Shown: positions 6,728 to 24,100, counted from the first letter of the stretch. The stretch: 34,292 nucleotides of DNA from Candidatus Poseidoniaceae archaeon (GCA_030741225.1 JASLVU010000002.1:1-34292), one strand, 5' to 3'. The notes: generated by a model from the sequence alone, not told the origin. A program made the numbers and translations.

Positions 6728-6801
6728 GCGCGGGTAGCTTAGTCGGCTGGAGCACCCGGCTGATAACCGGGAGGTCGCAGGTTCAAGTCCTGCCTCGCGC
6801 A
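6728..6801 (+). tRNA. tRNA-Ile (anticodon GAU)
   Basis: I folded the cloverleaf by hand. The acceptor is GCGCGGG/CTCGCGC (one G-U), the D stem GCTT/GAGC, the anticodon stem CCCGG/CCGGG with loop CTGATAA, the variable loop AGGTC, and the T arm GCAGG-TTCAAGT-CCTGC. The discriminator is A and no CCA is encoded. Confidence 0.92.
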
Positions 6802-6892
6802 CTCTTCTTCATTTGAATCGCTGAGTTTCACGGTTCAATCCACTCGCAAAGAACATGAAGGGTCACTTCTTCGCTTCGAATAAGGGAATCTC

Positions 6893-11507: not shown

Positions 11508-11567
11508 CACACCTCACATTCATATATGGATAGTTGTGGTTGTTTAATTATCACGGAGGCATCAAGT

Positions 11568-12578
11568 ATGGAATCTGGTATGACTGGAGCGCCCGCTATG
11601 GGTCAAAACCCCGCTGCGCAGGACCTAATTGGTACTGTTTCTGCAATTTCGAACAGCCTCATGAATGAAGTTGGGAAAGTCATTATCGGAAAACCACAAA
11701 ACCTTCGCCGTGTTACTGTCGGAATTCTATCAAACGGAAACATGCTGCTCGAAGATTTTCCAGGTTTAGCAAAAACATTACTGGCAAACACCTTCGCTCG
11801 TGCCCTTGGATGTAAATTCAAGCGTGTACAGTTTACTCCCGACCTGCTTCCTTCCGATATCATGGGCACCTACATGTACGACCAGAAGTCTGGTGAATTC
11901 AAACTACGTGCAGGTCCTCTATTCTCAAACATTTTACTTGCTGACGAAATCAACAGAGCACCTCCAAAGACTCAAGCAGCACTCCTTGAAGCAATGGAAG
12001 AAAAGCAAGTTACAATCGAAGGTATTACACACAAACTTCCTGCTCCTTTCGTTGTATTGGCAACCCAAAACCCAATTGAACAAGAAGGTACTTACCCGCT
12101 TCCAGAGGCTCAAATGGACCGTTTCTTGATGAAAATGAGTATGGGCTATCCAGACCGGCCACAAGAAAAAGCAATCCTTGCGCGTAGAAAACTACGTGGA
12201 AAAGACAATCACGATGTTGAACAGATTACAACTCCCAAGAAACTGGTAGCAATGCAAAAAGCACTTGAGACGGTGCATGTAGATCCTGCCATTCTATCGT
12301 ACATTGTTGAGATTGTACAAAGAACACGTGAAGATCATCGTGTCACGAACGGAGCTTCGCCTCGTGCTTCGCAGTCCCTGTTCAAGACCGGGCGAGCTGC
12401 TGCTGCAATCGCTGGTCGAAATTACGTAATTCCAGATGATATCAAAGACATCGCATTACAGATAATTTCTCACAGAATCAACATGAAACCTGAAGCTAAG
12501 ATACGAGGTATAACTGGGATGCACATTGTCCGAAAAATCCTCTCCGAAGTTCCTGTTCCTGTCATTCAACCTGCTTGA
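11568..12578 (+). CDS. MoxR-family AAA+ ATPase
   Basis: GNMLLEDFPGLAKT (Walker A region), LLADEINRAPPKTQAALLEAMEE (Walker B/sensor), VLATQNPIEQEGTYPLPEAQMDRF and GASPRAS. GGAGG lies 7 nt upstream of the ATG at 11568 (the ORF is open from 11526). Confidence 0.88.
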   Translation: MESGMTGAPAMGQNPAAQDLIGTVSAISNSLMNEVGKVIIGKPQNLRRVTVGILSNGNMLLEDFPGLAKTLLANTFARALGCKFKRVQFTPDLLPSDIMGTYMYDQKSGEFKLRAGPLFSNILLADEINRAPPKTQAALLEAMEEKQVTIEGITHKLPAPFVVLATQNPIEQEGTYPLPEAQMDRFLMKMSMGYPDRPQEKAILARRKLRGKDNHDVEQITTPKKLVAMQKALETVHVDPAILSYIVEIVQRTREDHRVTNGASPRASQSLFKTGRAAAAIAGRNYVIPDDIKDIALQIISHRINMKPEAKIRGITGMHIVRKILSEVPVPVIQPA

Positions 12579-12650
12579 AACTGTATACTCTAGGGTCTGC
12601 ATTGAAAGAGGAGGACCTTTTTCCCGTAATCGTCGGAGGTGGCAGTTAAG

Positions 12651-13610
12651 ATGAATCCTTACAAAATGGTCGTTGCTGTCGCCAATCAAAAAGGAGGTTG
12701 TGCAAAAACAACTACCGCCGTGAACTTGGCTGCAGCATTAGCAAAAGGCTCCTCGCGTCAAGGTTTGCCAAAAGCAAAAGTTCTGCTTATCGATTTAGAT
12801 CCTCAAGGAAATTGTGCTACGTCGTTCGGCGTTGAAAAAAAGAAAATCAAAAAGACAGCCTACGATTTACTTACCAATGATTCAGGCGAAGATTTGCCAC
12901 TTATGGAGGAATACCTGATTGGACCTGATGAATTAACGCAGTCAATGCGTGATGCCTGGAGTCTTCGAAACAACAACAAAAAACCACCAGAAAATCTCTC
13001 AGTGGGACACTTGTGGCTTTTACCAAGCGACATCCATCTCTCTGGCGCTGAAATCGAACTGAGTCATAAAATTGGTCGAGAAACTCGTCTGCGTGAAGCT
13101 CTTCAACCCATCATCGACCAGTTTGATTACATCATCATTGACACCCCACCATCGCTAGGATTGCTTTCAATCAATGCGATGTGTGCTGCAAACTGGGTTA
13201 TGGTACCTGTACAAGCAGAGTACTATGCGCTTGAAGGATTTAGCATGTTGATGAATTCCATAAAAATGATTCAACGAAGAATCAATCGTAATCTGAAAAT
13301 TTTCGGTATTGCAATGACTATGGTTGATGCTCGCTCGAAACTTAGTCGGCATGTATGCGATGAAGTGAACCGTAAAATGCCGAATAAATTATTCAAAACA
13401 ACAATTCGAAGACTGGTAAAAGTCGCTGAAGCCCCATGGAGTGGTGCTCCAACAGTGTTGTTGAATAAACCAACAAATTCCGGTGCTGGAGCAGGTTCTC
13501 TGGAGTATTGGACTCTTTCCAAAGAATTTCATCAACGAGTAATGGAGATGAGGCGAGAATTTGGAGTGAACGAAGACCCTCGGCTTCTCTTAGAACGTAA
13601 AAACCGGTGA
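12651..13610 (+). CDS. ParA/Soj-family partition ATPase
   Basis: Deviant Walker A VANQKGGCAKTT, then DLDPQGN, IIIDTPPSLG and VPVQAEYYALEG. A loop of about 45 aa (LIGPDELTQ...NLSVGH) is inserted relative to the compact Soj proteins I recall. The ATG at 12651 is preferred over the GTG at 12639. Confidence 0.85.
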   Translation: MNPYKMVVAVANQKGGCAKTTTAVNLAAALAKGSSRQGLPKAKVLLIDLDPQGNCATSFGVEKKKIKKTAYDLLTNDSGEDLPLMEEYLIGPDELTQSMRDAWSLRNNNKKPPENLSVGHLWLLPSDIHLSGAEIELSHKIGRETRLREALQPIIDQFDYIIIDTPPSLGLLSINAMCAANWVMVPVQAEYYALEGFSMLMNSIKMIQRRINRNLKIFGIAMTMVDARSKLSRHVCDEVNRKMPNKLFKTTIRRLVKVAEAPWSGAPTVLLNKPTNSGAGAGSLEYWTLSKEFHQRVMEMRREFGVNEDPRLLLERKNR

Positions 13611-13634
13611 AACGGCGTTTCGAAACTGAGACAT

Positions 13635-13656
13635 ACCTCGACAAAACGAGGTTTTC
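13635..13656 (+). terminator. Hairpin plus T-tract after the ParA gene
   Basis: ACCTCG-ACAAAA-CGAGGT followed by TTTT, 25 nt after the stop codon. Confidence 0.35.
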
Positions 13657-13716
13657 AAGCCATATCCTTTCGCGCAGGTTAAGTATGCTATAGAACAGAG
13701 GAGGTTCGGGATAGCC

Positions 13717-13959
13717 ATGACAGGTGAAGGGATGACCTCGGTCAGTGTGAGTTACGAAGTACGACGTCAACTCAACACAATGCGAACAATGAGCGGACAC
13801 AAAAGTGTCAATGAACTACTGACGGATTTAGTTCGTGCACACAAGTTGAAGACCATGAACGGAGATATTGAAACGCTGCGAGAGCGGATGAAAGCAATTG
13901 CAGATGTCGATATAGAGCACTTGGTTGACCGACTTAACCTCGCACCATTCAAGGTTTGA
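13717..13959 (+). CDS. Ribbon-helix-helix (CopG/ParG/SegB-like) DNA-binding protein
   Basis: 80 aa. The N-terminal beta-strand plus two-helix pattern TSVSVSYEVRRQLNTMRTMSGHKSVNELLTDLVRAH is typical of RHH proteins. GGAGG lies 12 nt upstream. Confidence 0.6.
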   Translation: MTGEGMTSVSVSYEVRRQLNTMRTMSGHKSVNELLTDLVRAHKLKTMNGDIETLRERMKAIADVDIEHLVDRLNLAPFKV

Positions 13960-13964
13960 TTGTC

Positions 13965-14219
13965 ATGATGGAATGGCGTCCGAATGGATACGAATTTGAT
14001 GCCAAGAACTTGGTACGGGCTTTGTTTAGTGAAAATACTGATGAAGGTAAGTTGCTGGAAGCGGCTGCTTGTGGATACATTGAAATTTTTGCAAGAGCAA
14101 AAGCATGGAACAGCGTTCTTTGGTTGATAATGAACACGCTCAAGAAGGATGGAAAACCAGTTTACACTGGTGAAGAGTTGAAGGATTTAAGGGATTCACT
14201 GCCGATTGTTTGGCGTTGA
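13965..14219 (+). CDS. Hypothetical small protein (84 aa; 87 aa if TTG 13956 is used)
   Basis: The ATG lies 5 nt after the RHH stop with AAGGT 9 nt upstream. From TTG 13956 it would overlap the RHH gene by 4 nt. I recognise no motif. Confidence 0.5.
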   Translation: MMEWRPNGYEFDAKNLVRALFSENTDEGKLLEAAACGYIEIFARAKAWNSVLWLIMNTLKKDGKPVYTGEELKDLRDSLPIVWR

Positions 14220-14315: not shown

Positions 14316-16763
14316 TCATTGGTTCTTGTCAAGCCATTCTTGACCGTACCATTTCCATTGGTCCATCGTCCATCCTTCTGGGAGCCCGCTGGCCGGGACT
14401 GGCGGACCTTGCGATTCTTGGACTTGAGGCTCATCAACTACGGCCTCATTTGCCGGTTCTGCATCAGGGACATCTGCATCAGATGAGATTCCTGCGATTG
14501 CCTCAAGACTGTCGTCATCTGAATAAAGAGTAGACGAGTCGACCGAATTCAAACTGCTTTCAGAATCATCAAATTCATCGTCAGCAACGGTAAAATCAAG
14601 TTGAGCAACATCATCGTCCCATGCAGAATCTGAAACGATGCCGCCTTGGGCTGATAAGCCTGCAGTACCTGCAAGAGCTTCAGTTTCAGCTGATTTGTTT
14701 TCAGTTGGTACAAAAGGAACACCGTACATCTTCACCAACGAATTGGTCTTACGTCGTTTCATGATGAAACTGATTACTAAGATTACTGCGGTAAGTCCAA
14801 GGAAAGCGCCACCACCAACCACGACAACCTGCTTTACAATATTGGAATCGACAGAATCAGATTCAAGAAGCCCTGCATTTTTACTTGCATTCCAAGCACT
14901 GTAACTAAGATCGTATTCTCCTTCTTCTTTATCTCGAGTTAGGTAGGATTGGTAATCTTTACTCCTCCATCCTTGACAAGCCGAAGACTCATCATCAAAA
15001 TTGAGTAAACAATGGTCTTCTTCGGTTTGAACTAAAGGACGTGTGTCATCGTAATCGGAGTTCGATCCAACACCGTCTTTGTCTCCATCAAAATGTTCAT
15101 CCGGGTCAAGTTCCATACCTTGAGATTCAGTGACATCTACCCAACCGTCTCCATCCAAATCCTCACAACCGTACGAAGATACCTCGATGAAACCAGTCGC
15201 CGCTGATGCGTTAACTATCCACGCTTTGGTTGAATTTCCGGCTTTCCAATTGCAGTCATCAGCAAAATCTCCAGAGATATTATCTCCGTAGCCGTCTCCA
15301 TCTCCATCACGCCATTGAGAACCAATTGAAGGCAGTGCGTCTGCACCATCAGCAACCGTCCAATTTTCAGTAGGGTTCGACCACCCGTCTAAATCCGAAT
15401 CAAGGCAGCCAAATCGATCCTGATTTGAAAACCCATTAAAATTCGGACAGGCATCTGGAGTGATTCCGTTTGGATTGTCTCCATATCCATCTTGATCCGC
15501 ATCAGACCACTGCGAAGGTTCGTCTTTGAATGCATCTCCATCCAAACCGTTCGAATTATCACCGTAACCATCGTTATCCGAGTCCTGCCACTGCTCGCTG
15601 TTACTGGGGAACATGTCTCCATTCACTCCGCCTGTATTATCTCCATATCCGTCACCGTCATTATCGCTCCATTGCGTCGGCTCGTTCGGGAACGCGTCAG
15701 GAAGGTAGCCACCTGAATTATCTCCATATCCATCGCCATCAGTATCTGCCCATTGCGATGACTCGAGTGGGAAGGCATCGAGTTGGTCGGTATATCCATC
15801 ACCATCGGAGTCCAAATCATAAAGTCGAATCTTTGAAAATGAGGAATATGATGTTACGATATAGACTTCACCGGTAAAAGCTTGGAAAGAACCAACAACT
15901 CTGCCAGAAGAAGAATACGAATTCTGTTCAGTAAAGGAAGATACGTCTACGAGGCTCAACTCACCGTTCTGAGTGCCTGTATGATAGGTCATGTTATCGA
16001 ATTCTTCCAATGAAACGACTGAAGACCCGTGACTCAAAGTTAAAGTTTCATGAGCCCAAGTCGTGGTATTGTAACGAAACAGTTTTCCGTTCGATGTTCC
16101 CACAAGTAAGTCGCCATTATGATCTTCAAGAAGCGAATTCACTATCGAAGTAGACTCGGTTAATGTCGTAAGACTCGTTCCCCCTTGGTTTGAGAAAATG
16201 TACACCTTCTTATCGTATGCACCGATAGCAATGCGCCCATCAGAAAGGACTTCGAAGGCGTTGAATCCTGACTGTATATTGGCAGTAGTATATCCTGTTG
16301 CACCTTCAGAATTGTACTCTTCAGCCCTACGGCGTCCGGCAAAATAAGCCAGCCAAAGGTCGCCTTCATCATCCCAATCTGCGTCACTCACCGATTCAGG
16401 AGTGCTCATGTTCCAATTGACAATTTGAAGATCCATGTGAACAATAGATACACCTGAATCATGGCAAACTACAGTCAATTGTTGAGCGGCGTCAAGACGT
16501 GCTGCATTTGTGGTGAGATTCAATTCAAGAGACCATTGAGGTATGAGTGTCCCACCTGAAAAACTGTTCACGCTTAGATTCCCTGTCTCATCGACGGTAA
16601 GAATTGAACCATCAAACATTTCTTTCCAATACACGAAAGTGGTTTCCGATTGTTGAGTAAACCCTGCATCAACAAGTGAAGTGCTGTTCGCCGCCACATG
16701 GGGAGTGAAAGCACCCAACGGTAGAAGCAAAACTGTAATCACGAAGACGAGTAGTCTCTTCAT
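14316..16763 (-). CDS. Type-I membrane surface protein: signal peptide, beta-propeller-like region, tandem acidic Ca-binding repeats, TM helix, acidic cytoplasmic tail
   Basis: The signal peptide is MKRLLVFVITVLLLPLGAF. Residues 40-315 carry repeated DG.L/NG.L strand patterns (PQQ/BamB-like). Residues 316-573 carry D-x-D-x-DGYGDN repeats. The TM helix is VVVVGGGAFLGLTAVILVISFIM followed by KRRK. The tail of about 148 aa is D/E/S-rich and ends in GWTMDQWKWYGQEWLDKNQ. Confidence 0.8.
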   Translation of the reverse strand: MKRLLVFVITVLLLPLGAFTPHVAANSTSLVDAGFTQQSETTFVYWKEMFDGSILTVDETGNLSVNSFSGGTLIPQWSLELNLTTNAARLDAAQQLTVVCHDSGVSIVHMDLQIVNWNMSTPESVSDADWDDEGDLWLAYFAGRRRAEEYNSEGATGYTTANIQSGFNAFEVLSDGRIAIGAYDKKVYIFSNQGGTSLTTLTESTSIVNSLLEDHNGDLLVGTSNGKLFRYNTTTWAHETLTLSHGSSVVSLEEFDNMTYHTGTQNGELSLVDVSSFTEQNSYSSSGRVVGSFQAFTGEVYIVTSYSSFSKIRLYDLDSDGDGYTDQLDAFPLESSQWADTDGDGYGDNSGGYLPDAFPNEPTQWSDNDGDGYGDNTGGVNGDMFPSNSEQWQDSDNDGYGDNSNGLDGDAFKDEPSQWSDADQDGYGDNPNGITPDACPNFNGFSNQDRFGCLDSDLDGWSNPTENWTVADGADALPSIGSQWRDGDGDGYGDNISGDFADDCNWKAGNSTKAWIVNASAATGFIEVSSYGCEDLDGDGWVDVTESQGMELDPDEHFDGDKDGVGSNSDYDDTRPLVQTEEDHCLLNFDDESSACQGWRSKDYQSYLTRDKEEGEYDLSYSAWNASKNAGLLESDSVDSNIVKQVVVVGGGAFLGLTAVILVISFIMKRRKTNSLVKMYGVPFVPTENKSAETEALAGTAGLSAQGGIVSDSAWDDDVAQLDFTVADDEFDDSESSLNSVDSSTLYSDDDSLEAIAGISSDADVPDAEPANEAVVDEPQVQESQGPPVPASGLPEGWTMDQWKWYGQEWLDKNQ
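15252..15818 (-). repeat. In-frame tandem repeats (27-aa / 81-nt unit) encoding thrombospondin-type-3-like Ca-binding motifs
   Basis: The units are DTDGDGYGDNSGGYLPDAFPNEPTQWS, DNDGDGYGDNTGGVNGDMFPSNSEQWQ and DSDNDGYGDNSNGLDGDAFKDEPSQWS, plus degenerate flanking copies. The DNA shows the recurring TCTCCATATCC(A/G)TC. This repetition also accounts for the shadow ORFs on both strands here. Confidence 0.85.
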
Positions 16764-16820
16764 AACAACCCGATAACCTCAATCAATATGAAGCGAACCC
16801 TTCACAGCATCAGTCAGCAA

Positions 16821-19322
16821 TTAATCATCCTGAGAGGTTTCTTCTTCTTCATCGTCGGATGACGAAGTGGATGTGAGTTTCAATGCAGGCATTTTCTGTA
16901 CTGGAGTCAGGGTTGAAGTCTTGTTCGCACTTGGGACTTGACCTGGCTTTGATTGTGGAGGAGGGCCTCGAGTTTTCTTTGGGACGAGTTGTGCTGGTTT
17001 GGGTGTTATAAGCGCCGTTTTCACCGGTTCGGGGATTTCCAATGTCTCAAGAACCGCTGTGATTGGAGTTAAGGTCGAAGTTCTCTGTTCTGAATCGGTT
17101 TCTTCTGGAACGATTTCCTCTGACACGGTTTCTTCGAGCATAGGTTCGGAAACTGGCTCTGCAACCGTAACAGGTTCTGGAACTTGTTCCATTTGAGTTT
17201 CGGCTTCAGGAGAAGAAGTCGGTTGAAGCGGTTTACGAACCAATTTCTGAACAGGTTGAGGCAGGTTCGATGCTATCGAGCCTCCAATTGGTGCTTTGAC
17301 CGGTTTAGCAAGTGAGGAACCAGGAAGAGGAGACAAAGGCTTGGAGCTTGTCATTGGAGTTCTCATTCCACCTAGACCCATTTGCGGTTGTGGAGCCTGC
17401 AATTGCCCGTCCATTATTCCACGCAATGGCCTTCCACCTGTCGCTCCTAATGCATCAGGACGCGCACCTAGAGACGTCGGATTGGTTTGACTGGACACTT
17501 GAGTGCCACCCTGGCCTGAAATTGATTGCATCCACATCTGCCGCTTCTCGGCTCGACTGTCAGTCGATTGGAGATCTCGGAATTCGGCTTCTCTCGTTCT
17601 CAAATCCGATTCAGCGGTGTTGATTTCGCCCTCAATTTGATTGGTGATTGCATCTCGCATCTTGTCCTCAGCCATTTCTTTGAATGCATCCATCTTTTCA
17701 CTTAGGCTCTGCAAACGTGTACGAATCTCAGCCCGCTTAAGTCCTAACTGAGCTTCAATCTCGGCACGGATATGTGTTTCTCTCTTACGAACATCAATGA
17801 GTGCCTTGTTTCGCATGATTTCTTCTCGCTTGTCCAATTGTCGCTCGAGTTGGGTAGCAACCTCTTCTTCTTTCCGAACTCGGAATTCGTTAAGTCGCTC
17901 CTCCATTTCAACCTCGAGTTCAAGAGATGTCTCTTCCTTAAGCATGTCGAGATCGGTCTCAAACGTGAGGCGCTCATTTCTCAAACCTGCATCTACCTCT
18001 GACATTATTGCCTTACGAGCAGACGCTTCTCTCGATTGGAATTCTAATTCAAGACGTTCAGACCAATCGGTCTTCTTGGAGTCGTACTGTTGTTCAAGTT
18101 GTTCACGCAGTTCTGCTTCTCTTTCGTAGCGGAAACGAGCAAGTCGATTTTGGATTTCAGCTTCACGAGCATTTCGGTAACTGGTGAACTCTTCATCCAT
18201 TCGAACTTGCAGTTCAGACTCAACATCGGACTTGAGAGAGCGGGAAATGTCATCAATGGCTTTGGAAAAGGTGATGTCATACTTCTCTCGAAGACGTGAT
18301 TTGCGTTCTGACAATTTCTCAGAATGTCGAGTCTGAAGTTGTTGTTCAATTTCGACACGCAATTCATCCCTACGTCGAGCAATAGCTAATTCAACATCCT
18401 CGCGCATTCTTTCCTCAAGTTCGTCGGTCTCTTTACGCAGTCGACCTTCAAGTTCCATCTGCAATTGTTCAGCAATATCTTCTTCCAGACGGAGGCTACG
18501 ACGCTCATATTCTGCCTTTAATCGGGCTTCACGTTGCTTTAGCCTTGAACGCAGTTGTTGTTCAAGTCGTGTACGAATTCCACGGCGAAGTTGTTCTTCT
18601 CGTTCAGCGAGGCGAGCCGCATGTCCTTCTTCAAGTCGAGAAATTTCATTCTCCTCCATTTCTTTGAATCGTTCTTCCATCTCGGATTCGAGATTCGCCT
18701 CAATCTCGCGTACACGACGCTGCAATTCTTGGTTGTATTCTATTGCCAGTCGTTCTTTCTGAATTTCCAAGCGTTGACGGTGTTCATCTTGAAGTTGAGT
18801 CTCGATTTGAGCTTTAAGTTGTGCTTTATGTTCTTCTAATCGACGGTCTTGTTCAACATCAAGTTTGTCTTGAAGAGCTTCGAGTTGTCGATTGAGTCTT
18901 AAATCAAGTTCACCGCGAATGCGGGATTCCTCACGTGCTAGAGAATCACGCTCCAATGTACTCAAATCACGTTCCATTCCTTCACGCATCTCTTTTTCAA
19001 GTGAATCAAGTGTAAGTTCATGTTGAATTGATAGGTCTTGCGCTAATGCTTCCTGCATAGCAACAACACGTTCAGTAATTGCTTGTTGGCGAAGTCGTCG
19101 TTCACGACGAATATCCGCTCGCAAACGCTCTTCTTGCCGGAAGCGAGCGCTGGTCATGACTGCTTGGTCAAGAGTCGAGGTTTCAGTCGAAGTAAACTGT
19201 GAACGGAGAGCTGATAACGAGACTTTTTGCGCGTTTTCCCGCTTCTTACGAGCCTCGTCGAGAGCATCGTCATTCTTGCTTGCGCTCATTCCCATCGTTC
19301 CCATCAAGTAGTTCATGCACAT
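16821..19322 (-). CDS. Very long E/R/Q/L-rich coiled-coil protein with a Pro/Thr/Ser-rich disordered C-terminal tail
   Basis: 833 aa with no signal peptide or TM helix. Residues 20-590 are almost uninterrupted charged heptad-like sequence. The I/L-E-x-Q-L motif recurs: IETQLQ, LEQQLR, AEQLQMELEGRL, IEQQLQ, LREQLEQQ, ATQLERQL, IEAQLG. Residues 590-833 are low complexity (PQPQMG, PLSPLPGS, TSTLTP twice, GPPPQSKPG) and end in SSSDDEEEETSQDD. The start could instead be one of the downstream Met codons (MGTMGMSAS). Confidence 0.8.
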   Translation of the reverse strand: MCMNYLMGTMGMSASKNDDALDEARKKRENAQKVSLSALRSQFTSTETSTLDQAVMTSARFRQEERLRADIRRERRLRQQAITERVVAMQEALAQDLSIQHELTLDSLEKEMREGMERDLSTLERDSLAREESRIRGELDLRLNRQLEALQDKLDVEQDRRLEEHKAQLKAQIETQLQDEHRQRLEIQKERLAIEYNQELQRRVREIEANLESEMEERFKEMEENEISRLEEGHAARLAEREEQLRRGIRTRLEQQLRSRLKQREARLKAEYERRSLRLEEDIAEQLQMELEGRLRKETDELEERMREDVELAIARRRDELRVEIEQQLQTRHSEKLSERKSRLREKYDITFSKAIDDISRSLKSDVESELQVRMDEEFTSYRNAREAEIQNRLARFRYEREAELREQLEQQYDSKKTDWSERLELEFQSREASARKAIMSEVDAGLRNERLTFETDLDMLKEETSLELEVEMEERLNEFRVRKEEEVATQLERQLDKREEIMRNKALIDVRKRETHIRAEIEAQLGLKRAEIRTRLQSLSEKMDAFKEMAEDKMRDAITNQIEGEINTAESDLRTREAEFRDLQSTDSRAEKRQMWMQSISGQGGTQVSSQTNPTSLGARPDALGATGGRPLRGIMDGQLQAPQPQMGLGGMRTPMTSSKPLSPLPGSSLAKPVKAPIGGSIASNLPQPVQKLVRKPLQPTSSPEAETQMEQVPEPVTVAEPVSEPMLEETVSEEIVPEETDSEQRTSTLTPITAVLETLEIPEPVKTALITPKPAQLVPKKTRGPPPQSKPGQVPSANKTSTLTPVQKMPALKLTSTSSSDDEEEETSQDD

Positions 19323-19408
19323 CTCATCATAGATAAGGAGCGCGACGGGAAAACAGGGCTACAAGGCTGTTTAGGAGGGTTATACGACTCACCAAATTGC
19401 CCACTGGT

Positions 19409-19801
19409 TCAAAAGGTAACTTTGAAACTCTTCGAACAGGCAGGGCAATCGATATTCCGTTCACCTGGGCGTCGCTTCATGCGTAGTTTTCGATCACAAC
19501 TTGGACATGTCACTTCAACCCGAGGCACATGAGGAGTGAGCGTGAAATGTATTGAGCATGATGCACATTGAAGGTGTGCTGGGCGTTTGTTCACTCCAGC
19601 AATTAGGACCTTACCACATTCTGGACAACCAATTTTTTCTTCGGCCCATTTTTTCCGCGTGACAGGATGGTCAACACGAACACGAGCATCACAAAGCGTG
19701 CAGTTAATTTCTCCCAACTCGTTCGGCAATAACCCACCACACTTTGGGCAGGAAAGTGCCGGAGGAGAGATGCGAGATTCAACAGTCAGTTCTTCGCTCA
19801 T
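19409..19801 (-). CDS. Small protein made of three tandem CxxC...CxxC zinc ribbons (MJ0042-type finger-like)
   Basis: The cysteine pairs are at 20/23+36/39, 61/64+81/84 and 101/104+121/124 (numbering from GTG 19807), so the period is about 40 aa. The last module, TCPSCDRKLRMKRRPGERNIDCPACSKSFKV, matches the MJ0042-type pattern. GAGGGG precedes the ATG at 19801. Confidence 0.7.
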   Translation of the reverse strand: MSEELTVESRISPPALSCPKCGGLLPNELGEINCTLCDARVRVDHPVTRKKWAEEKIGCPECGKVLIAGVNKRPAHLQCASCSIHFTLTPHVPRVEVTCPSCDRKLRMKRRPGERNIDCPACSKSFKVTF

Positions 19802-19853
19802 GTACACCCCTCACATTCGTTCTTCTTGATGTATTTGCTTCAACATTTAGAAA

Positions 19854-20357
19854 TTATTTTTTCTTTGCAATTAATGCAATATTCACAGGGATGAAATTCC
19901 ATGGCAAATTCAATTCTATTCCGTGATCTTTGGCTAAAAGTTCCAACATCTGCTTTGCTCCCACCTGGTCTCGAGAGCCCTCGAGTTGAATGATGTGTAT
20001 TTCCCCACCGTTGAGTACGGCATCAGAAAGAGTGGATGGTAGGGCGTCCAAGTCGCCTACTTGGACTTGAGTAGATGATTTCTGAGACGGCGCTGGATCT
20101 GCAGACAGAAGTTCCGGTAGCTCAACATGGGCTGTTTTCCTCCACCACCTTGCTCTACCTGCATCCCGATGATTTTCAACCAAGTTGAGGGCTACTAACT
20201 TCTTGAGATGATGATAAAGATTGTACCGTTCAACAGATACTTCGTTTTGAAGTTGAACAGTACTCATCTCATCATGTTGAGCCAATGCGATGTACAACGA
20301 ACGTCGGGTTGGATGCGCTAAAGCGGAGGTGATTGGGTCTGCCCGAACTCGTACCAT
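19854..20357 (-). CDS. ArsR-family winged-helix transcription regulator with an uncharacterised C-terminal domain
   Basis: LAHPTRRSLYIALAQHDEMSTVQLQNEVSVERYNLYHHLKKLVALNLVE is an ArsR/SmtB-type HTH. The protein contains no cysteine. It lies 62 nt downstream of the ATPase on the same strand. The start is ATG 20357 or GTG 20360. Confidence 0.7.
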   Translation of the reverse strand: MVRVRADPITSALAHPTRRSLYIALAQHDEMSTVQLQNEVSVERYNLYHHLKKLVALNLVENHRDAGRARWWRKTAHVELPELLSADPAPSQKSSTQVQVGDLDALPSTLSDAVLNGGEIHIIQLEGSRDQVGAKQMLELLAKDHGIELNLPWNFIPVNIALIAKKK

Positions 20358-20422
20358 CACCTCACCGTTGCGAGAGAGTTGCTACTTAGGTTTGAAGATA
20401 CCGAGTCAAAATTGAAAAAAAC

Positions 20423-23146
20423 TTACTGAGGCAAATATCGTAATTTGAGAACTCTAAACGCGTCTTTGGTATCCAACCATAATGAAACGCATATTGAACG
20501 AAGCAGTGAAATCATTCCTTCGCCTGCTAGACGAGCACCGTTTATGATGACCAAAATTGCTGACGCCTCATGTATGAGAACACCAACCCAGAGTTCATCA
20601 TAAAGTTGGAAAATTACGGCAATAACAAGGGAAAGAGTAATTCCTATTGTGATGATAAGATTCCCAAGTAATATTCTTTGAGATTGACGCGAGATATCGA
20701 CAAGGTCCGCCAACATAAGAGGATTATCGCTTGGAATCAAAACATCTGCTGCCTCAAGATTTACAGTTTCACCCGTTCCAACTGCCACACCAACATCAGC
20801 AATTGCAAGTGCTGCTGCATCATTGAATCCATCTCCAACCATCATCGTGATGTGGGTTTTTGAACGATTTTTCACCCATTCAACTTTCTGTTCTGGAGAG
20901 AAACCTCCATGGGCAGAAGAATCTGGCAACCCAACACTCTTTGCAAAAGCCGAAACTGCAGACTGATTATCACCCGATAAAATTTCGACATTAATTGAGC
21001 GTTCACGAAGTGAAGTAATCAATTCTTTGCTTCCAGCATATGTATCGTCATGTATGAAGGTGAACAACGCAATGCCTTCTCCTTCTCGTACAAGCAAACT
21101 GGCACCGTGACCTTTCTTTTCAGTGGCAGTGTACGCTACGGCCAATTCTTCAGGCACACGTACTTTCAATTTATCAGCACGATCAAAACGAATGAACATC
21201 ACATCCTTACCGCTCACCTTGCCTTTCACACCTGCCTCAATATCGGATATATTGGAGACGGAATTAGGGGCTATGTTTTGCTGCTGGATATAGTCCATGA
21301 CCGAGAGGGCATATGGGTGGGAGGAACGAGACTCGAGTCCTCCGGCTAATTTCAATGCGGCATTTCGTTGTCTTCCCTTCGCCATGTGAACATCACCTAG
21401 TCGTGGTCTTCCAGATGTGAGCGTTCCCGTTTTATCCAAGAGAATATGATTGACCTTTGACAGGCGCTCAATGACATCTCCACCCCGGGCAATTGCCCCA
21501 AACTGCGCAGATCTTGAGAGGGCTGCTGCATGAGGTATTGGATTCGCTAAAAGCAGCGCGCACGGACATGCAACTACCCAAATAAGAAGAATAATTTTCC
21601 AGTTATCAGGGAATAACGCATACCATACTCCAAAAGCACCAAGCAGAACTATCGGAACCCATATCGCGGTGAACAACTCAATTGTACTTTGCAACCGCGG
21701 TGGCTCCTCACGGAAGGTATGAACTGCATCAATCAAACCGGAAAGGCGTGTGTCGTCTCCTACTGCAGTTACTTGAACAACAACTGGGCCGCGAGCCAAA
21801 ATTAATCCGGCTTGAATTTCATCACCTTTAGTTACCTCTACCGGAACAGACTCACCGGTTAACGGTGCCTTATCCAATGAGCCGTAGCCATCAGTGATTA
21901 CACCATCTGCTGGAATCAATTCACCGCTTCGAATCTCAATGAAATCTCCGATGCGAATCAATTCAATAGGCACAGATTCAGGTTCTTCATGTGAATCGGG
22001 AATTGAACCTGGCCCCACACCGAGCAACGGTGAAGGTGCTGCCATTTGAAGAGTAAATCCCGTCACGGATAAATCGCTCAAACTGGTTGGTTTCTTTCCA
22101 GTTACTCGACGAGCAGTACGTGGTAAACGGTCAAGACCCCCTTGCATTGCTTCTCGGGCTTTGAGCAGAGCATCACCTTCAAGATGTGCGGTAAATGCTA
22201 CCAATATTGCTACAATCAATGCCTCCTCCCACATTCCCAAAACAGCAGCACCAATAACTGCTAAACTGGTTAGAACTTGAAATCCAAGTTGTCGGTTACG
22301 TACACTAGCAAAGGCTTCTTTGAACATCTGGGAACCACCGATTACCAATCCGGGTAAAGCGATAATTCCTAGAACGGTTGAAGACCAACCAAGGATTTCT
22401 CCCAAAATGACAATTAGCAACAATGGAAGAGCAATACCTCCGCCAATAAGTCTCCACTGATCTGGGCGCAAACGATTCGATTCAGCAGGTACAAACTTTG
22501 GAGGAGAACCGATTATTTCCGAGAGTGAAGTGTTTCGCAGGTCGAATAATTCCTTTGGATTCTCAGGTGGAAATTGAAGTAAAATTCGTTCATCATCTGT
22601 AATTTCGACATCTAAAATACCCGGCTGCAACTTCAAAATCTTCGTGAGTTTCCTTTGGTCAACTCCATTCCTAAGGGCAACCTGAGAACTTCGAACACCA
22701 ACCAATTGATTGAAACCAACATCTGGGGAATGGCCCAAAGCACGGAGGACAGATGATGCCTCTGACATCGAGCCCTGTTCAAGGTCAATGTTGAATTTCA
22801 CAGTTCCTGCGGTAGCCGAGACTTTGGGTTCATCGACTTGAAACAGCGTATTCAGTGCACGTGTTGCTTTACTTGCACAATCTGGGCAATCCATTCCTAC
22901 CAAAGGCCATTCAACAACAAAGATTCCTGTAGCTTGTTTTATGATTGTCGAATCCAAAATTTCAGCATCGAGTATAACGGGCTCAGGTGCCTTCTTCGTA
23001 GGAGAATCTATCTGTGGAAGGGGATTGGTTTTTTGCTTCGTTTTTTCCTTGGTTTTTTGCTTGGTTTTATCCACTTTGGTTTCTACTGGTTTTGAATCAT
23101 CGTCATCAAGAGATAGAAACACATCGTTCTCATCACCCTTTGACAT
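20423..23146 (-). CDS. Heavy-metal-translocating P1B-type ATPase
   Basis: N-terminal HMA domain with GMDCPDC, TGES (LTGESVPV), TM CPC (VVACPCALL), DKTGTLT and GDGFNDAAAL. A K/T-rich low-complexity N-terminus (KTKQKTKEKTKQKT) precedes the HMA domain. Confidence 0.9.
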   Translation of the reverse strand: MSKGDENDVFLSLDDDDSKPVETKVDKTKQKTKEKTKQKTNPLPQIDSPTKKAPEPVILDAEILDSTIIKQATGIFVVEWPLVGMDCPDCASKATRALNTLFQVDEPKVSATAGTVKFNIDLEQGSMSEASSVLRALGHSPDVGFNQLVGVRSSQVALRNGVDQRKLTKILKLQPGILDVEITDDERILLQFPPENPKELFDLRNTSLSEIIGSPPKFVPAESNRLRPDQWRLIGGGIALPLLLIVILGEILGWSSTVLGIIALPGLVIGGSQMFKEAFASVRNRQLGFQVLTSLAVIGAAVLGMWEEALIVAILVAFTAHLEGDALLKAREAMQGGLDRLPRTARRVTGKKPTSLSDLSVTGFTLQMAAPSPLLGVGPGSIPDSHEEPESVPIELIRIGDFIEIRSGELIPADGVITDGYGSLDKAPLTGESVPVEVTKGDEIQAGLILARGPVVVQVTAVGDDTRLSGLIDAVHTFREEPPRLQSTIELFTAIWVPIVLLGAFGVWYALFPDNWKIILLIWVVACPCALLLANPIPHAAALSRSAQFGAIARGGDVIERLSKVNHILLDKTGTLTSGRPRLGDVHMAKGRQRNAALKLAGGLESRSSHPYALSVMDYIQQQNIAPNSVSNISDIEAGVKGKVSGKDVMFIRFDRADKLKVRVPEELAVAYTATEKKGHGASLLVREGEGIALFTFIHDDTYAGSKELITSLRERSINVEILSGDNQSAVSAFAKSVGLPDSSAHGGFSPEQKVEWVKNRSKTHITMMVGDGFNDAAALAIADVGVAVGTGETVNLEAADVLIPSDNPLMLADLVDISRQSQRILLGNLIITIGITLSLVIAVIFQLYDELWVGVLIHEASAILVIINGARLAGEGMISLLRSICVSLWLDTKDAFRVLKLRYLPQ

Positions 23147-23972: not shown

Positions 23973-24018
23973 AAACCTCTAAAGTTGAAGAAATTAAGAA
24001 ATTCTTTACAATATGAAG

Positions 24019-24100
24019 TGCCGGGGGCAGGATTCGAACCTGCGAAGCTTTACGCAGAGGATCTTGAGTCCACCCCCTTTGACCGCTCGGGAACCCCGGC
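24019..24100 (-). tRNA. tRNA-Leu (anticodon CAA), class II with a long variable arm
   Basis: The reverse complement reads GCCGGGG-TT-CCCGAGCGGTCAAAGGG-..-GTGGA-CTCAAGA-TCCTC-long variable arm-GCAGG-TTCGAAT-CCTGC-CCCCGGC-A. The acceptor is perfectly paired and the anticodon stem has one U-U mismatch. Confidence 0.88.

What the first reader, a model, noticed from the sequence alone, without database searches (positions are those of the whole stretch)
14316..19807. Candidate undescribed three-gene module: zinc-ribbon adaptor, giant coiled-coil rod and membrane-spanning Ca-repeat surface protein
The three genes lie head-to-tail on the minus strand with gaps of 86 and 57 nt, downstream of the ArsR-like regulator (gap of about 46 nt). 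A TATA-like CGTATAAC (plus strand 19381-19388) precedes the coiled-coil gene. The parts could fit together. The surface protein has a long acidic cytoplasmic tail with a Trp-rich end. The coiled-coil protein has a proline-rich, partly basic tail (KPVKAP, KKTRGPPPQSKPG). The zinc-ribbon protein is basic. This fits a trans-membrane assembly that links an extracellular Ca-dependent binding domain to an intracellular filament or scaffold, for example for cell-shape control, surface organisation or attachment. That model is a hypothesis built only from domain architecture and gene order.
Basis: inference. Interest (0 to 1): 0.7.

Follow-up and report, generated by a model that had tools for sequence, protein, structure and literature searches.

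The report
Odd coiled-coil rod beside membrane protein
The three genes are real and stay neighbours in all marine Group II archaea examined, but they are two units rather than one: a zinc-ribbon gene tied to metal-handling genes, and a pair made of a calcium-motif membrane glycoprotein and a fixed-length helical rod with a very rare 19-residue repeat.

Summary
The sequence observation holds. Three minus-strand ORFs lie at the stated coordinates with gaps of 57, 86 and 46 nt, and the described tails are there. The window comes from a Poseidoniales (Marine Group II) archaeon.

The three-gene reading is only partly supported. The triple zinc-ribbon gene always follows the ArsR-like HTH gene and the P1B heavy-metal ATPase (80/80 and 77/77 loci). 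It is separated from the rod gene in 34 of 85 loci, by a CDP-alcohol phosphatidyltransferase gene or by a ZnuABC cluster.

The rod and surface genes are adjacent in 84/84 loci, 49-80 nt apart. Each has its own conserved promoter-like box.

The rod family has no detectable relatives outside Poseidoniales. It shows no heptad signal. Instead it has 24 uninterrupted 19-residue repeats (periodicity 3.80), and the helical stretch has the same length in 78 of 81 loci.

The surface protein is a 7-bladed beta-propeller, followed by seven DxDxDGxxD repeats, one membrane helix and an acidic tail. The tail ends in a near-invariant Trp-rich motif.

A physical link between rod and tail is plausible but untested. 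Interest is moderate to high, mainly because of the rod.

The parts
14316..16763 (-). Surface protein gene (815 aa). Type I membrane glycoprotein candidate, pI 4.05, with 11 N-x-S/T sequons in the ectodomain.
   Evidence: ORF; topology; AlphaFold2 model; orthologues; sequons.
15813..16676 (-). Seven-bladed WD40-like beta-propeller (aa 30-317).
   Evidence: AlphaFold2 gives 28 strands with pLDDT above 90. Foldseek against PDB gives E about 1e-15 and TM up to 0.80 to WD40 propellers at 11-16% identity. The Pfam propeller hits are all below their cut-offs.
15045..15812 (-). Acidic repeat region (aa 318-573) with seven DxDxDGxxD calcium-loop motifs. Five of them follow the form QWxDxDGDGYGDN...D.FP.
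   Evidence: Regex count; the Asp and Gly columns are invariant in 28 orthologues; no Pfam or PDB sequence match.
14754..14828 (-). Single transmembrane helix (aa 646-670), followed by KRRK.
   Evidence: Hydropathy scan; helix 640-678 in the AlphaFold2 model.
14319..14753 (-). Cytoplasmic tail (aa 671-815). It has a conserved juxtamembrane stretch (61% mean identity), a variable acidic linker (27%) and a C-terminal motif.
14328..14405 (-). C-terminal motif PP[LVI]PxxGLP[ED]GWT[MT][DE]QWxWYG[QH]E[WY]L. It is the best-conserved part of the protein (75% mean identity) and is predicted to be an amphipathic helix.
   Evidence: A looser form of the motif, W...[QE]W.[WFY][YFW]G, was found at the C-terminus of the orthologue in 69 loci plus the window and in no other ORF of the 87 sequences scanned, about 1.3 Mb. 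Conservation figures; helix 800-814.
16785..16792 (-). Promoter-like TATA box TTCATATT, centred about 25 nt upstream of the ATG of the surface gene.
   Evidence: TTCATAT[TC] or TTGATAAT sits at this fixed distance in most of the 78 loci compared, while the rest of the 49-80 nt spacer varies. Similar boxes lie upstream of the EF-1alpha gene and the giant surface protein gene.
16821..19322 (-). Rod protein gene (833-aa ORF; the real start is probably Met10 at 19295 or Met12 at 19289). No signal peptide and no membrane helix, so it is predicted to be cytoplasmic.
17805..19172 (-). 24 consecutive 19-residue (nonadecad) repeats, aa 51-506. Hydrophobic residues sit at positions 1/2, 5, 9, 13 and 17. 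The periodicity is 3.80 and the underlying sequence repeat is 38 aa.
   Evidence: Spectral power 4.6-6.0 against a shuffled maximum of 2.3 or less, with about zero power at 3.5, in 14 orthologues. Register table; consensus. The peak is at 3.80 in 78 of 81 loci.
18261..18305 (-). Conserved 'elbow' RLREKYDxTFSKAxDD (aa 340-354), the most conserved stretch of the rod (85% mean identity). AlphaFold2 breaks the helix here, yet the 19-residue register runs through it.
17520..17804 (-). C-terminal helical segment (aa 507-601) with a shifted periodicity. It overlaps the nearly invariant block that begins at aa 491, QLERQLDKREEIMRNKALIDVRKRE..IRAEIEAQLG.
16824..17519 (-). Disordered Pro/Ser/Thr-rich tail (aa 602-833) with conserved short motifs: GLGGMRAP, RPVKAPIG, T.LTP[VI] (two or three copies), [KR]RG[PS]PP.S..G in 9 of 14 orthologues, and an acidic end.
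   Evidence: pLDDT below 50; alignment; composition.
19322..19346 (-). Invariant block upstream of the rod gene, GTCGCGCTCCTTATCTATGATGAGA, holding the TATA-like box TTATCTAT (19336-19329).
   Evidence: Identical in 9 of the 10 loci aligned and differing at two bases in the tenth (L021). It is kept in L009, where the upstream neighbour is a different gene. It resembles the EF-1alpha promoter region.
19409..19807 (-). Triple zinc-ribbon protein (132 aa, pI 8.9, six invariant CxxC pairs). It belongs with the HTH and metal-transport unit, not with the rod.
   Evidence: Pfam Zn_ribbon_6 at 32.8 bits, above the cut-off of 25; alignment; synteny.
19854..20360 (-). ArsR-like winged-helix regulator (168 aa, HTH_20). 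It has no cysteine.
   Evidence: Pfam PF12840 at 44.7 bits, above the cut-off of 27. NCBIfam HTH_metalloreg at 45.1 bits, below its cut-off of 55.
20423..23146 (-). P1B-type heavy-metal ATPase (907 aa) with an HMA domain and a CPC motif.
   Evidence: TIGR01525 at 420 bits (cut-off 346) and TIGR01512 at 345 bits (cut-off 313.5); Pfam.

Best explanation
The region holds two units rather than one three-gene module.

Unit A is a metal (probably zinc) homeostasis cluster: a P1B-2-type ATPase, an ArsR-like HTH regulator and a 132-aa triple zinc-ribbon protein. The zinc-ribbon protein is most likely a partner of the cysteine-free regulator, for example a metal-sensing or metal-buffering subunit. That role is inferred.

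Unit B is a gene pair restricted to Poseidoniales and present in every genome examined here.
(i) The first gene encodes a type I membrane glycoprotein. Outside the cell it presents a 7-bladed beta-propeller on a stalk of DxDxDG calcium loops. Inside the cell it has a roughly 145-aa acidic tail that ends in a near-invariant Trp-rich amphipathic helix.
(ii) The second gene encodes a cytoplasmic alpha-helical rod of about 550 residues. The rod is built from 24 in-register 19-residue repeats (19/5 = 3.80 residues per turn). That periodicity predicts a strongly right-handed coiled coil roughly 65-80 nm long. Its length is fixed across the order, and it is followed by a disordered Pro-rich tail that carries conserved short motifs.

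Most likely mechanism (inferred). The rod oligomerises and docks, through its disordered tail or its conserved elbow, onto the conserved cytoplasmic motifs of the membrane protein. This would give a trans-envelope assembly that couples a calcium-dependent surface domain to a fixed-length scaffold or tether under the membrane.

Shown: the genes, the domain anatomy, the periodicity, the length invariance, the order-wide adjacency and the separate promoter-like boxes. Inferred: calcium binding, the oligomeric state, the handedness, and any contact between the two proteins.
For: Separation of the units.
- HTH|Zn-ribbon is intact in 80/80 loci and ATPase|HTH in 77/77.
- Zn-ribbon|rod is direct in only 51/85 loci. 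It is interrupted by a CDP-alcohol phosphatidyltransferase gene (about 29 loci) or by inserts of 2.6-7 kb.
- In L009 the insert is ZnuA-ZnuC-ZnuB plus two further ORFs, one of them a short-chain dehydrogenase. L010 and L022 have inserts of the same size.
- The ATPase passes the NCBIfam heavy-metal and Cd/Zn-family cut-offs.
- The invariant promoter-like block travels with the rod gene even when the upstream gene differs.

The pair.
- Rod|surface is adjacent in 84/84 informative loci, with a 49-80 nt spacer in 78 loci. This includes the most divergent lineages, L001, L087 and L088.
- The pair stays together where the downstream synteny is lost (L016, L037) or interrupted (L035, L036) and where the upstream side carries inserts (L008-L010, L022).
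- Relatives of the rod gene were found in 287 GTDB species genomes, and the best 80 are all Poseidoniales.
- In 1.84 billion representative proteins there are only 181 hits. Three are full-length clusters and the rest are fragments.

The rod.
- Periodicity is 3.80 with no heptad signal.
- The register is unbroken over aa 51-506.
- Two anchor motifs are 554 residues apart in 78 of 81 loci.
- It is 46% charged and 26% hydrophobic, with a seam.
- AlphaFold2 predicts helices 54-339 and 353-601 and a disordered tail.

The surface protein. The C-terminal motif is the most conserved part of the protein and is unique to this family within the loci scanned.
Against: - The whole roughly 20-kb neighbourhood, from the PRPP synthase gene to the HAD gene, is syntenic across the order. 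Several other junctions are also never broken. Adjacency alone is therefore weak evidence of a shared function.
- Each gene of the pair has its own promoter-like box, so co-transcription is not indicated.
- No interface was predicted or measured.
- A periodicity of 3.8 has been documented only locally in solved coiled coils (YadA; PMC4786415). A 456-residue version is physically unproven.
- AlphaFold2 gave only a monomer with pTM 0.22.
- Calcium binding rests on motif matching only; Pfam TSP_3 did not hit.
- The zinc role of the Zn-ribbon protein is inferred from its neighbours only.
Confidence: 0.5

Rival explanations
1. Neighbours by descent only. The rod, the surface protein and the zinc-ribbon protein work independently. 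They stay adjacent because this core-genome region is rigidly syntenic in Poseidoniales.
For: The junctions ATPase|HTH, sm2|sm1, sm1|ParA and ParA|MoxR are also unbroken in 62-77 loci. Each gene has its own promoter-like box. There is no interaction evidence of any kind.
Against: The pair is bounded on both sides by the two clearly variable junctions of the region (34/85 and 5/68 interrupted) and is itself never split in 84 loci. Both proteins are lineage-restricted. Their topologies are complementary. The conserved cytoplasmic motifs of the surface protein imply a cytoplasmic partner.
Confidence: 0.3
2. All three proteins form one assembly, in which the basic zinc-ribbon protein bridges the rod and the acidic tail.
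For: The three genes are co-oriented and all three are present in every locus that reaches far enough. The charges are complementary: the zinc-ribbon protein has pI 8.9, the surface tail 4.05 and the rod 5.1.
Against: The Zn-ribbon|rod junction is interrupted in 34/85 loci. The Zn-ribbon gene is tightly spaced to the HTH gene, and to the CDP-alcohol transferase gene where that is present (9 nt), but not to the rod gene (85 nt or more). A ZnuABC insertion lies directly after it. The rod gene has its own invariant promoter block.
Confidence: 0.07
3. A tether between the nucleoid and the envelope. The rod and the membrane protein anchor or position the chromosome, together with the convergent Soj/ParA gene and the small ORFs next to it.
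For: In the most divergent lineage (L087) the cytoplasmic tail of the surface orthologue holds a bona fide SAP DNA-binding domain, 50.5 bits against a cut-off of 23.9. A Soj/ParA ATPase gene (E 5e-53 to a solved ParA family protein, 8ray; also matches Soj segregation proteins) and two small ORFs lie convergent to the surface gene in 63/68 loci. The first small ORF looks like a ribbon-helix-helix protein by eye. The rod is 15% arginine.
Against: The SAP domain is present in 1 of 90 sequences. The link to the ParA module is lost in L016 and L037. The rod is acidic overall and has no known DNA-binding domain. The arcadin-3 hit of the 87-aa ORF is at chance level, E 0.095.
Confidence: 0.08
4. The surface protein is the S-layer or main envelope glycoprotein of Poseidoniales, and the rod is an unrelated cytoskeletal or stress protein.
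For: The surface protein is found in all loci examined, is about 800 aa and is acidic (pI 4.05). It has 11 sequons, a C-terminal membrane anchor, calcium-type motifs and a strong promoter-like box of the leaderless type.
Against: A long cytoplasmic tail with a near-invariant terminal motif is not typical of S-layer proteins (my own knowledge). No lattice or expression data are available. A 2136-aa surface protein in the same window is an equally good candidate.
Confidence: 0.05

Closest known systems
Nonadecad (19/5) segment of the YadA trimeric autotransporter stalk
   Same: It has the same hydrophobic periodicity of 3.8 residues per turn, which implies strong right-handed supercoiling. PMC4786415 calls this the most extreme periodicity known in coiled-coil structures.
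   Different: In YadA the periodicity is local, within an extracellular bacterial trimeric adhesin. Here it runs for 24 uninterrupted repeats (456 residues) in a predicted cytoplasmic archaeal protein. There is no sequence similarity (no PDB hit). The oligomeric state is unknown.
Tetrabrachion stalk of Staphylothermus marinus (right-handed archaeal coiled coil; my own knowledge)
   Same: It is a long, roughly 70-nm right-handed coiled-coil rod of an archaeon and is associated with the cell envelope.
   Different: Tetrabrachion uses 11-residue repeats (3.67), is secreted, forms part of the S-layer and is anchored by its own C-terminus. The rod here has no signal peptide or membrane helix and uses a 19/5 periodicity.
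Bacterial coiled-coil-rich cytoskeletal proteins (crescentin, FilP, Scy; PMC9858780)
   Same: They are long cytoplasmic rods with disordered ends and no enzymatic domain. A role as a scaffold under the membrane is plausible.
   Different: Those proteins are built on heptad or 51-residue patterns. No homology was detected. The rod here has a fixed length and an adjacent transmembrane candidate partner.
Integrin alpha subunit with talin (analogy only)
   Same: The analogy is an extracellular 7-bladed propeller with DxDxDG-type calcium sites, a single membrane helix, and a cytoplasmic tail that recruits a long helical rod.
   Different: There are no FG-GAP repeats, no beta subunit and no talin-like FERM domain or helical bundles. 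The propeller matches generic WD40 folds at 11-16% identity. The resemblance is in architecture, not in ancestry.
Thrombospondin type 3 calcium-binding repeats. 'Thrombospondin' genes were noted as widespread in Poseidoniales by Rinke et al. (PMC6461757).
   Same: They have tandem Asp-rich DxDxDGxxD loops, and the proteins are extracellular.
   Different: Pfam TSP_3 is not matched even at E = 10. The repeat here has its own consensus, QWxDxDGDGYGDN...D.FP.
ArsR/SmtB regulator with a P1B ATPase: metal-resistance operons
   Same: The same HTH regulator class sits next to a heavy-metal P-type ATPase. A ZnuABC cluster is inserted at the same place in some genomes.
   Different: The regulator has no cysteine, so it lacks the cysteine-based metal sites of classical sensors. 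An extra triple zinc-ribbon protein is always encoded right after it, and its role is unknown.

Membership tests
Canonical heptad coiled coil | Hydrophobic periodicity of 3.5 (7/2). | tested here: not met
   Power at 3.50 is 0.06-0.49, against 4.6-6.0 at 3.80, in 14 orthologues. All local windows show about zero power at 3.5.
Non-heptad right-handed coiled coil (nonadecad, 19/5) | A sustained hydrophobic seam with periodicity above 3.63, here 3.80. | tested here: met
   The peak is at 3.80 in 78 of 81 loci. The register is unbroken over aa 51-506. Core positions 5, 9, 13 and 17 are 60-87% hydrophobic.
Non-heptad right-handed coiled coil (nonadecad, 19/5) | Two or more helices packed knobs-into-holes, with a defined oligomeric state and handedness. 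| not testable with these tools
   Only a monomer AlphaFold2 model was available (pTM 0.22). Foldseek found nothing in PDB.
Single alpha-helix (ER/K SAH) domain | Very high E/K/R content with almost no hydrophobic seam. | tested here: not met
   The region is 46% charged and 26% LIVMFYW, with a strict seam. Opposite-charge i/i+3 and i/i+4 pairs are only modestly above shuffled sequences: 117 against 96.5, sd 7.8.
WD40-like 7-bladed beta-propeller | Seven four-stranded blades. | tested here: met
   AlphaFold2 gives 28 strands over aa 30-317 at pLDDT above 90. Foldseek gives E 1e-15 and TM up to 0.80 to WD40 domains.
WD40-like 7-bladed beta-propeller | A sequence match to a curated propeller family above its cut-off. 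| tested here: not met
   The best Pfam hits score about 24 bits against cut-offs of 133-320.
Thrombospondin type 3 repeat (PF02412) | A Pfam profile match. | tested here: not met
   No TSP_3 hit at E up to 0.1 on the whole protein or up to 10 on the repeat region.
DxDxDG calcium-binding loop proteins | The DxDxDG(xxD) motif. | tested here: met
   There are seven copies, and the Asp and Gly columns are invariant in 28 orthologues. Calcium binding itself was not tested.
Integrin alpha | FG-GAP repeats in the propeller. | tested here: not met
   There is no FG-GAP hit in Pfam. The structural neighbours are generic WD40 proteins.
Operon (single transcription unit of three genes) | No internal promoters, and tight or overlapping gene junctions. 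| tested here: not met
   Conserved promoter-like boxes lie before the rod gene and before the surface gene. The Zn-ribbon|rod junction is interrupted in 34/85 loci. Read-through transcription cannot be excluded without RNA data.
Conserved gene pair (rod and surface protein) | Adjacency kept across the clade, including where the flanks are rearranged. | tested here: met
   84/84 loci. The flanking junctions vary in L008-L010, L022, L016, L037, L035 and L036.
Zinc ribbon (Pfam Zn_ribbon_6, PF07191) | A profile match above the cut-off, and paired CxxC knuckles. | tested here: met
   32.8 bits against a cut-off of 25. There are six invariant CxxC pairs.
ArsR/SmtB metalloregulator | A winged HTH of the ArsR type. 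| tested here: met
   PF12840 at 44.7 bits, above the cut-off of 27.
ArsR/SmtB metalloregulator | Passes the NCBIfam HTH_metalloreg cut-off and has metal-ligand Cys/His sites. | tested here: not met
   45.1 bits, below the cut-off of 55. The 168-aa sequence contains no cysteine.
P1B heavy-metal P-type ATPase | Subfamily profile matches above their cut-offs. | tested here: met
   TIGR01525 at 420.1 bits against 346.25, and TIGR01512 at 344.6 bits against 313.5.

The most novel reading that the evidence does not exclude
Poseidoniales, among the most abundant planktonic archaea, may all carry a previously undescribed trans-envelope device. It would consist of a fixed-length rod (about 554 helical residues) that is an extremely right-handed 19/5 coiled coil, docked to the invariant Trp-rich cytoplasmic end of a calcium-binding propeller glycoprotein. 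The device would act as a cortical skeleton or molecular ruler, or as a tether between the envelope and the nucleoid. The nucleoid idea rests on the SAP domain in the tail of one lineage and on the neighbouring Soj/ParA module. The rod would be the first natural protein built almost entirely of nonadecads.
Probability: 0.2. Interest if true: 0.8.

Novelty: new variant of a known kind. Interest (0 to 1): 0.6.

Why it matters
Poseidoniales are uncultured and dominate surface-ocean archaeal communities, yet nothing is known about their cell envelope or cytoskeleton.

A conserved, lineage-specific pair of a transmembrane glycoprotein and a long cytoplasmic rod is a concrete, testable entry point into their cell biology.

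Separately, the rod matters for coiled-coil structural biology. It has 456 residues of strictly in-register 19/5 periodicity, and the length of its helical stretch is unchanged in 78 of 81 loci. That would be a natural test case at the upper limit of coiled-coil periodicity, which has been documented only locally in YadA.

Splitting off the zinc-ribbon gene also points to an uncharacterised partner of an ArsR-like regulator in a metal-homeostasis cluster.

Tried and rejected
- Sequence and profile searches of the rod against PDB found nothing. Foldseek of its AlphaFold2 model against PDB gave 0 hits. Pfam and NCBIfam gave no family.
- A homology search with the last 54 residues of the surface tail returned only 13 short fragments of the same gene.
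- Pfam on the isolated repeat region and on both tails found nothing significant. A PDB sequence search of the repeat region gave only chance-level C-type lectin hits.
- The bacterial-type promoter and terminator scan was uninformative, with counts at the level of shuffled sequence.
- Rfam found no RNA family in the region, only two tRNAs elsewhere in the window.
- Apparent 4- and 11-nt overlaps between the rod and surface genes were rejected as artefacts of taking the longest ORF. When the start is placed at the signal-peptide Met, the spacer is 49-80 nt in all 78 loci.
- The single alpha-helix reading was rejected on composition and the presence of a seam.
- Literature searches for Poseidoniales with coiled-coil, and for nonadecad coiled coils, found no description of this protein or pair.
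- The arcadin-3 hit of the 87-aa ORF (E 0.095) was treated as chance.

Full report
OBSERVATION

The three ORFs exist as described. The surface protein gene is at 14316-16763 (815 aa), the rod gene at 16821-19322 (833 aa) and the zinc-ribbon gene at 19409-19807 (132 aa). All are on the minus strand, with gaps of 57 and 86 nt. The ArsR-like HTH gene (19854-20360) lies 46 nt upstream, and a P-type ATPase gene (20423-23146) lies before that.

- The surface protein has a signal peptide, one membrane helix (aa 646-670), a 142-aa tail of pI 4.05 ending in WTMDQWKWYGQEWLDKNQ, and seven DxDxDGxxD motifs.
- The rod protein has no hydrophobic segment. Its C-terminal third is Pro/Ser/Thr-rich.
- The zinc-ribbon protein has pI 8.9.

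The window is archaeal. It encodes deoxyhypusine synthase, aIF5B, L7Ae and EF-1alpha. The names that sources give to homologues place it in Poseidoniales, the Marine Group II archaea.

ARE THE THREE GENES ONE MODULE?

Homologues of the rod gene were found in 287 species-representative genomes. The best 80 are all Poseidoniales. I compared those 80 loci and nine metagenome loci with the window by tblastn and by ORF analysis.

The whole roughly 20-kb neighbourhood is syntenic. The order runs from HAD through the P1B ATPase, HTH, Zn-ribbon, rod and surface genes. Convergent to these are two small ORFs, ParA, MoxR, aIF5B, NDK, ribosomal protein genes and the PRPP synthase gene. So the three genes do co-occur outside this genome, but that fact alone says little.

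The informative signal is where the synteny breaks.

| Junction | Intact / informative loci |
|---|---|
| HAD, ATPase | 63/65 |
| ATPase, HTH | 77/77 |
| HTH, Zn-ribbon | 80/80 |
| Zn-ribbon, rod | 51/85 |
| rod, surface | 84/84 |
| surface, small ORF | 63/68 |

- The rod|surface figure uses the ORF analysis. Seven loci looked wider by tblastn extent only.
- In about 29 loci a CDP-alcohol phosphatidyltransferase gene follows the Zn-ribbon gene after only 9 nt.
- In L009 a cluster of ZnuA, ZnuC and ZnuB plus two further ORFs is inserted between the Zn-ribbon and rod genes. L010 and L022 have inserts of the same size, and L008 has a 2.6-kb insert.
- The ATPase passes the NCBIfam cut-offs for heavy-metal and Cd/Zn-type P1B pumps.

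The zinc-ribbon protein has six invariant CxxC pairs and reaches the Pfam Zn_ribbon_6 cut-off. It therefore belongs with the regulator and the metal transporters.

The rod and surface genes form a pair that is bounded on both sides by the two clearly variable junctions of the region.

PROMOTERS

Upstream of the rod gene lies a 25-nt block, GTCGCGCTCCTTATCTATGATGAGA (19346-19322). It is identical in nine of the ten loci aligned, whose coding sequences are only 70-97% identical. The tenth, L021, differs at two bases. The block is kept in L009, where the upstream gene is different.

The reading frame between this block and Met10 is not preserved in relatives. The real start is therefore probably Met10 or Met12.

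In the 49-80 nt spacer before the surface gene, a box TTCATAT[TC] or TTGATAAT sits about 25 nt from the ATG in most of the 78 loci, while the rest of the spacer varies. This is the geometry of an archaeal TATA box driving a leaderless mRNA (established knowledge).

Similar boxes precede the EF-1alpha gene and the giant surface protein gene, so these look like ordinary strong promoters.

The sequence therefore does not indicate a single operon. Read-through cannot be excluded.

THE ROD

The rod has no Pfam, NCBIfam or PDB relative. Foldseek of its model found nothing in PDB.

A profile search of 1.84 billion representative proteins found only 181 hits. Three are full-length clusters and the rest are fragments. 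This is a family without detectable relatives outside Poseidoniales.

AlphaFold2 predicts two long helices, 54-339 and 353-601, and a disordered tail.

The unexpected result concerns periodicity.
- There is no heptad signal.
- The hydrophobic periodicity is 3.80, that is 19/5. Its spectral power is 4.6-6.0, against at most 2.3 in shuffled sequences, in all 14 orthologues down to 43% identity. The same peak appears in 78 of 81 loci.
- Written in rows of 19, the hydrophobic positions (1/2, 5, 9, 13, 17) stay in register from residue 51 to 506. That is 24 repeats, and the register runs through the break predicted by AlphaFold2.
- The underlying sequence repeat is 38 residues.
- The aligned helical region of 14 orthologues contains no gaps. 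Two anchor motifs are exactly 554 residues apart in 78 of 81 loci.
- The composition is 46% charged and 26% hydrophobic with a seam. This fits a coiled coil and not a single ER/K helix.

According to Hartmann et al. (PMC4786415), 3.8 (19/5) is the most extreme periodicity seen in coiled-coil structures, and it is seen only locally, in YadA. Periodicities above 3.63 mean right-handed supercoiling (PMC8016460).

A 456-residue nonadecad rod of fixed length would therefore be unusual. Its oligomeric state and handedness are inferred, not shown.

The most conserved stretches are the 'elbow' RLREKYDxTFSKAxDD (85% identity) and the block QLERQLDKREEIMRNKALIDVRKRE. The disordered tail carries conserved short motifs.

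THE SURFACE PROTEIN

AlphaFold2, run with 28 orthologues, gives a confident 7-bladed propeller (aa 30-317, pLDDT above 90). It also gives a confident but irregular Asp-rich repeat segment, a small helical juxtamembrane domain, the membrane helix, a disordered tail and a terminal helix at 800-814.

Foldseek matches generic WD40 propellers: E about 1e-15, TM up to 0.80, 11-16% identity.

The repeats match the DxDxDG calcium-loop motif but not Pfam TSP_3.

The C-terminal motif PP[LVI]PxxGLP[ED]GWT[MT][DE]QWxWYG[QH]E[WY]L is the most conserved part of the protein. Its mean identity is 75%, against 51% for the propeller and 27% for the acidic linker. In a six-frame scan of the loci it occurred only at the C-terminus of this family.

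Such a conserved cytoplasmic end implies a conserved cytoplasmic partner. The neighbouring rod is the obvious candidate, but that is an inference.

Rinke et al. (PMC6461757) noted 'thrombospondin' genes as widespread in Poseidoniales and linked them to adhesion. I found no description of this protein pair.

MECHANISM AND RIVALS

My best reading, with confidence about 0.5 for the whole statement, is two units.
- Unit A is a metal-homeostasis unit in which the Zn-ribbon protein partners the cysteine-free ArsR-like regulator.
- Unit B is an envelope-spanning pair. The calcium-stabilised propeller faces outward, and the fixed-length right-handed rod is recruited to the cytoplasmic motifs of the membrane protein, forming a scaffold or tether.

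The main rival (0.3) is that adjacency is only inherited synteny.

One hint points elsewhere. In the most divergent lineage (L087), the tail of the surface orthologue contains a bona fide SAP DNA-binding domain, 50.5 bits with E 1.5e-13. In addition, a Soj/ParA gene and two small ORFs lie convergent to the surface gene in most loci. A role as a nucleoid tether is therefore not excluded (0.08). However, the SAP domain occurs in only one of 90 sequences.

VERDICT

The finding is not one new three-part machine. It does contain a real, order-wide pair of proteins of unknown function. One of them is structurally peculiar enough to interest coiled-coil specialists and archaeal cell biologists.

Novelty: a new variant of known kinds, namely a coiled-coil rod and a propeller/calcium-loop membrane glycoprotein. 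Interest: 0.6.

Noticed in passing
L087:3340-5880 (aa 751-783 of the surface orthologue): A bona fide SAP (SAF-A/B, Acinus, PIAS) DNA-binding domain (PF02037, 50.5 bits, E 1.5e-13) is inserted in the cytoplasmic tail, between the membrane helix and the conserved Trp-rich end. It occurs only in this most divergent lineage, 1 of 90 sequences.
   Followed up: partly
window 12639-14219 (+): A Soj/ParA-type ATPase (323 aa; E 5e-53 to a solved ParA family protein, 8ray) is followed by an 80-aa ORF that looks like a ribbon-helix-helix protein and an overlapping 87-aa ORF (NCBIfam arcadin-3 at E 0.095, chance level). This looks like a chromosomal partition module. It is convergent to the surface gene in 63/68 loci.
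   Followed up: partly
L009:1274-7891; inserts of the same size in L010 and L022; a 2.6-kb insert in L008: Five ORFs are inserted exactly between the Zn-ribbon gene and the rod gene. They are a 922-aa ZnuA with EF-hand-like hits, ZnuC, ZnuB, a 250-aa ORF without a family, and a short-chain dehydrogenase. In about 29 other loci a CDP-alcohol phosphatidyltransferase gene sits at this spot, 9 nt after the Zn-ribbon gene.
   Followed up: partly
window 19322-19346 (-): The invariant block upstream of the rod gene contains ATGATGAGA, which resembles a C-box, and a possible 5-codon upstream ORF (MMRxx-stop) whose start and stop are conserved. It is far more conserved than the coding sequence, so it may be more than a TATA box.
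   Followed up: no
window 24133-30543 (-): A giant 2136-aa surface protein has a signal-like N-terminus, an InhA-like MAM domain (PF20773, 40.6 bits), a C-terminal membrane helix and a short basic tail. Its upstream region carries a promoter-like box (ctctttcatatttgatga) similar to those of the rod and surface genes. It lacks the Trp-rich motif.
   Followed up: partly
window 16821-19322 (-), N-terminus: The first-ATG ORF call (833 aa) probably overextends the rod gene by 9-11 codons. The conserved start is Met10 or Met12 (19295 or 19289). That makes the gap to the Zn-ribbon gene about 113 nt rather than 86.
   Followed up: yes
L016-L020 and L037 (downstream of the surface gene); L035 and L036 (2.5-kb insert): Downstream of the surface gene, the small ORFs, ParA and MoxR are absent in L016 and L037, the loci that reach far enough to tell. 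They were also not found in the shorter L017-L020. In L016 they are replaced by unrelated ORFs, including proteins with Excalibur-like and beta-propeller-repeat hits. In L035 and L036 about 2.5 kb is inserted between the surface gene and the small ORFs.
   Followed up: partly
window 11526-12578 (+): A MoxR-type AAA+ ATPase (AAA_3 at 218 bits) has no adjacent DUF58 or vWA partner gene. It is directly followed by the ParA gene.
   Followed up: no
window 6728-6802 (+) and 24018-24100 (-): tRNA-Ile(GAT) and tRNA-Leu(CAA). These are the only Rfam or ARAGORN hits in the window.
   Followed up: yes
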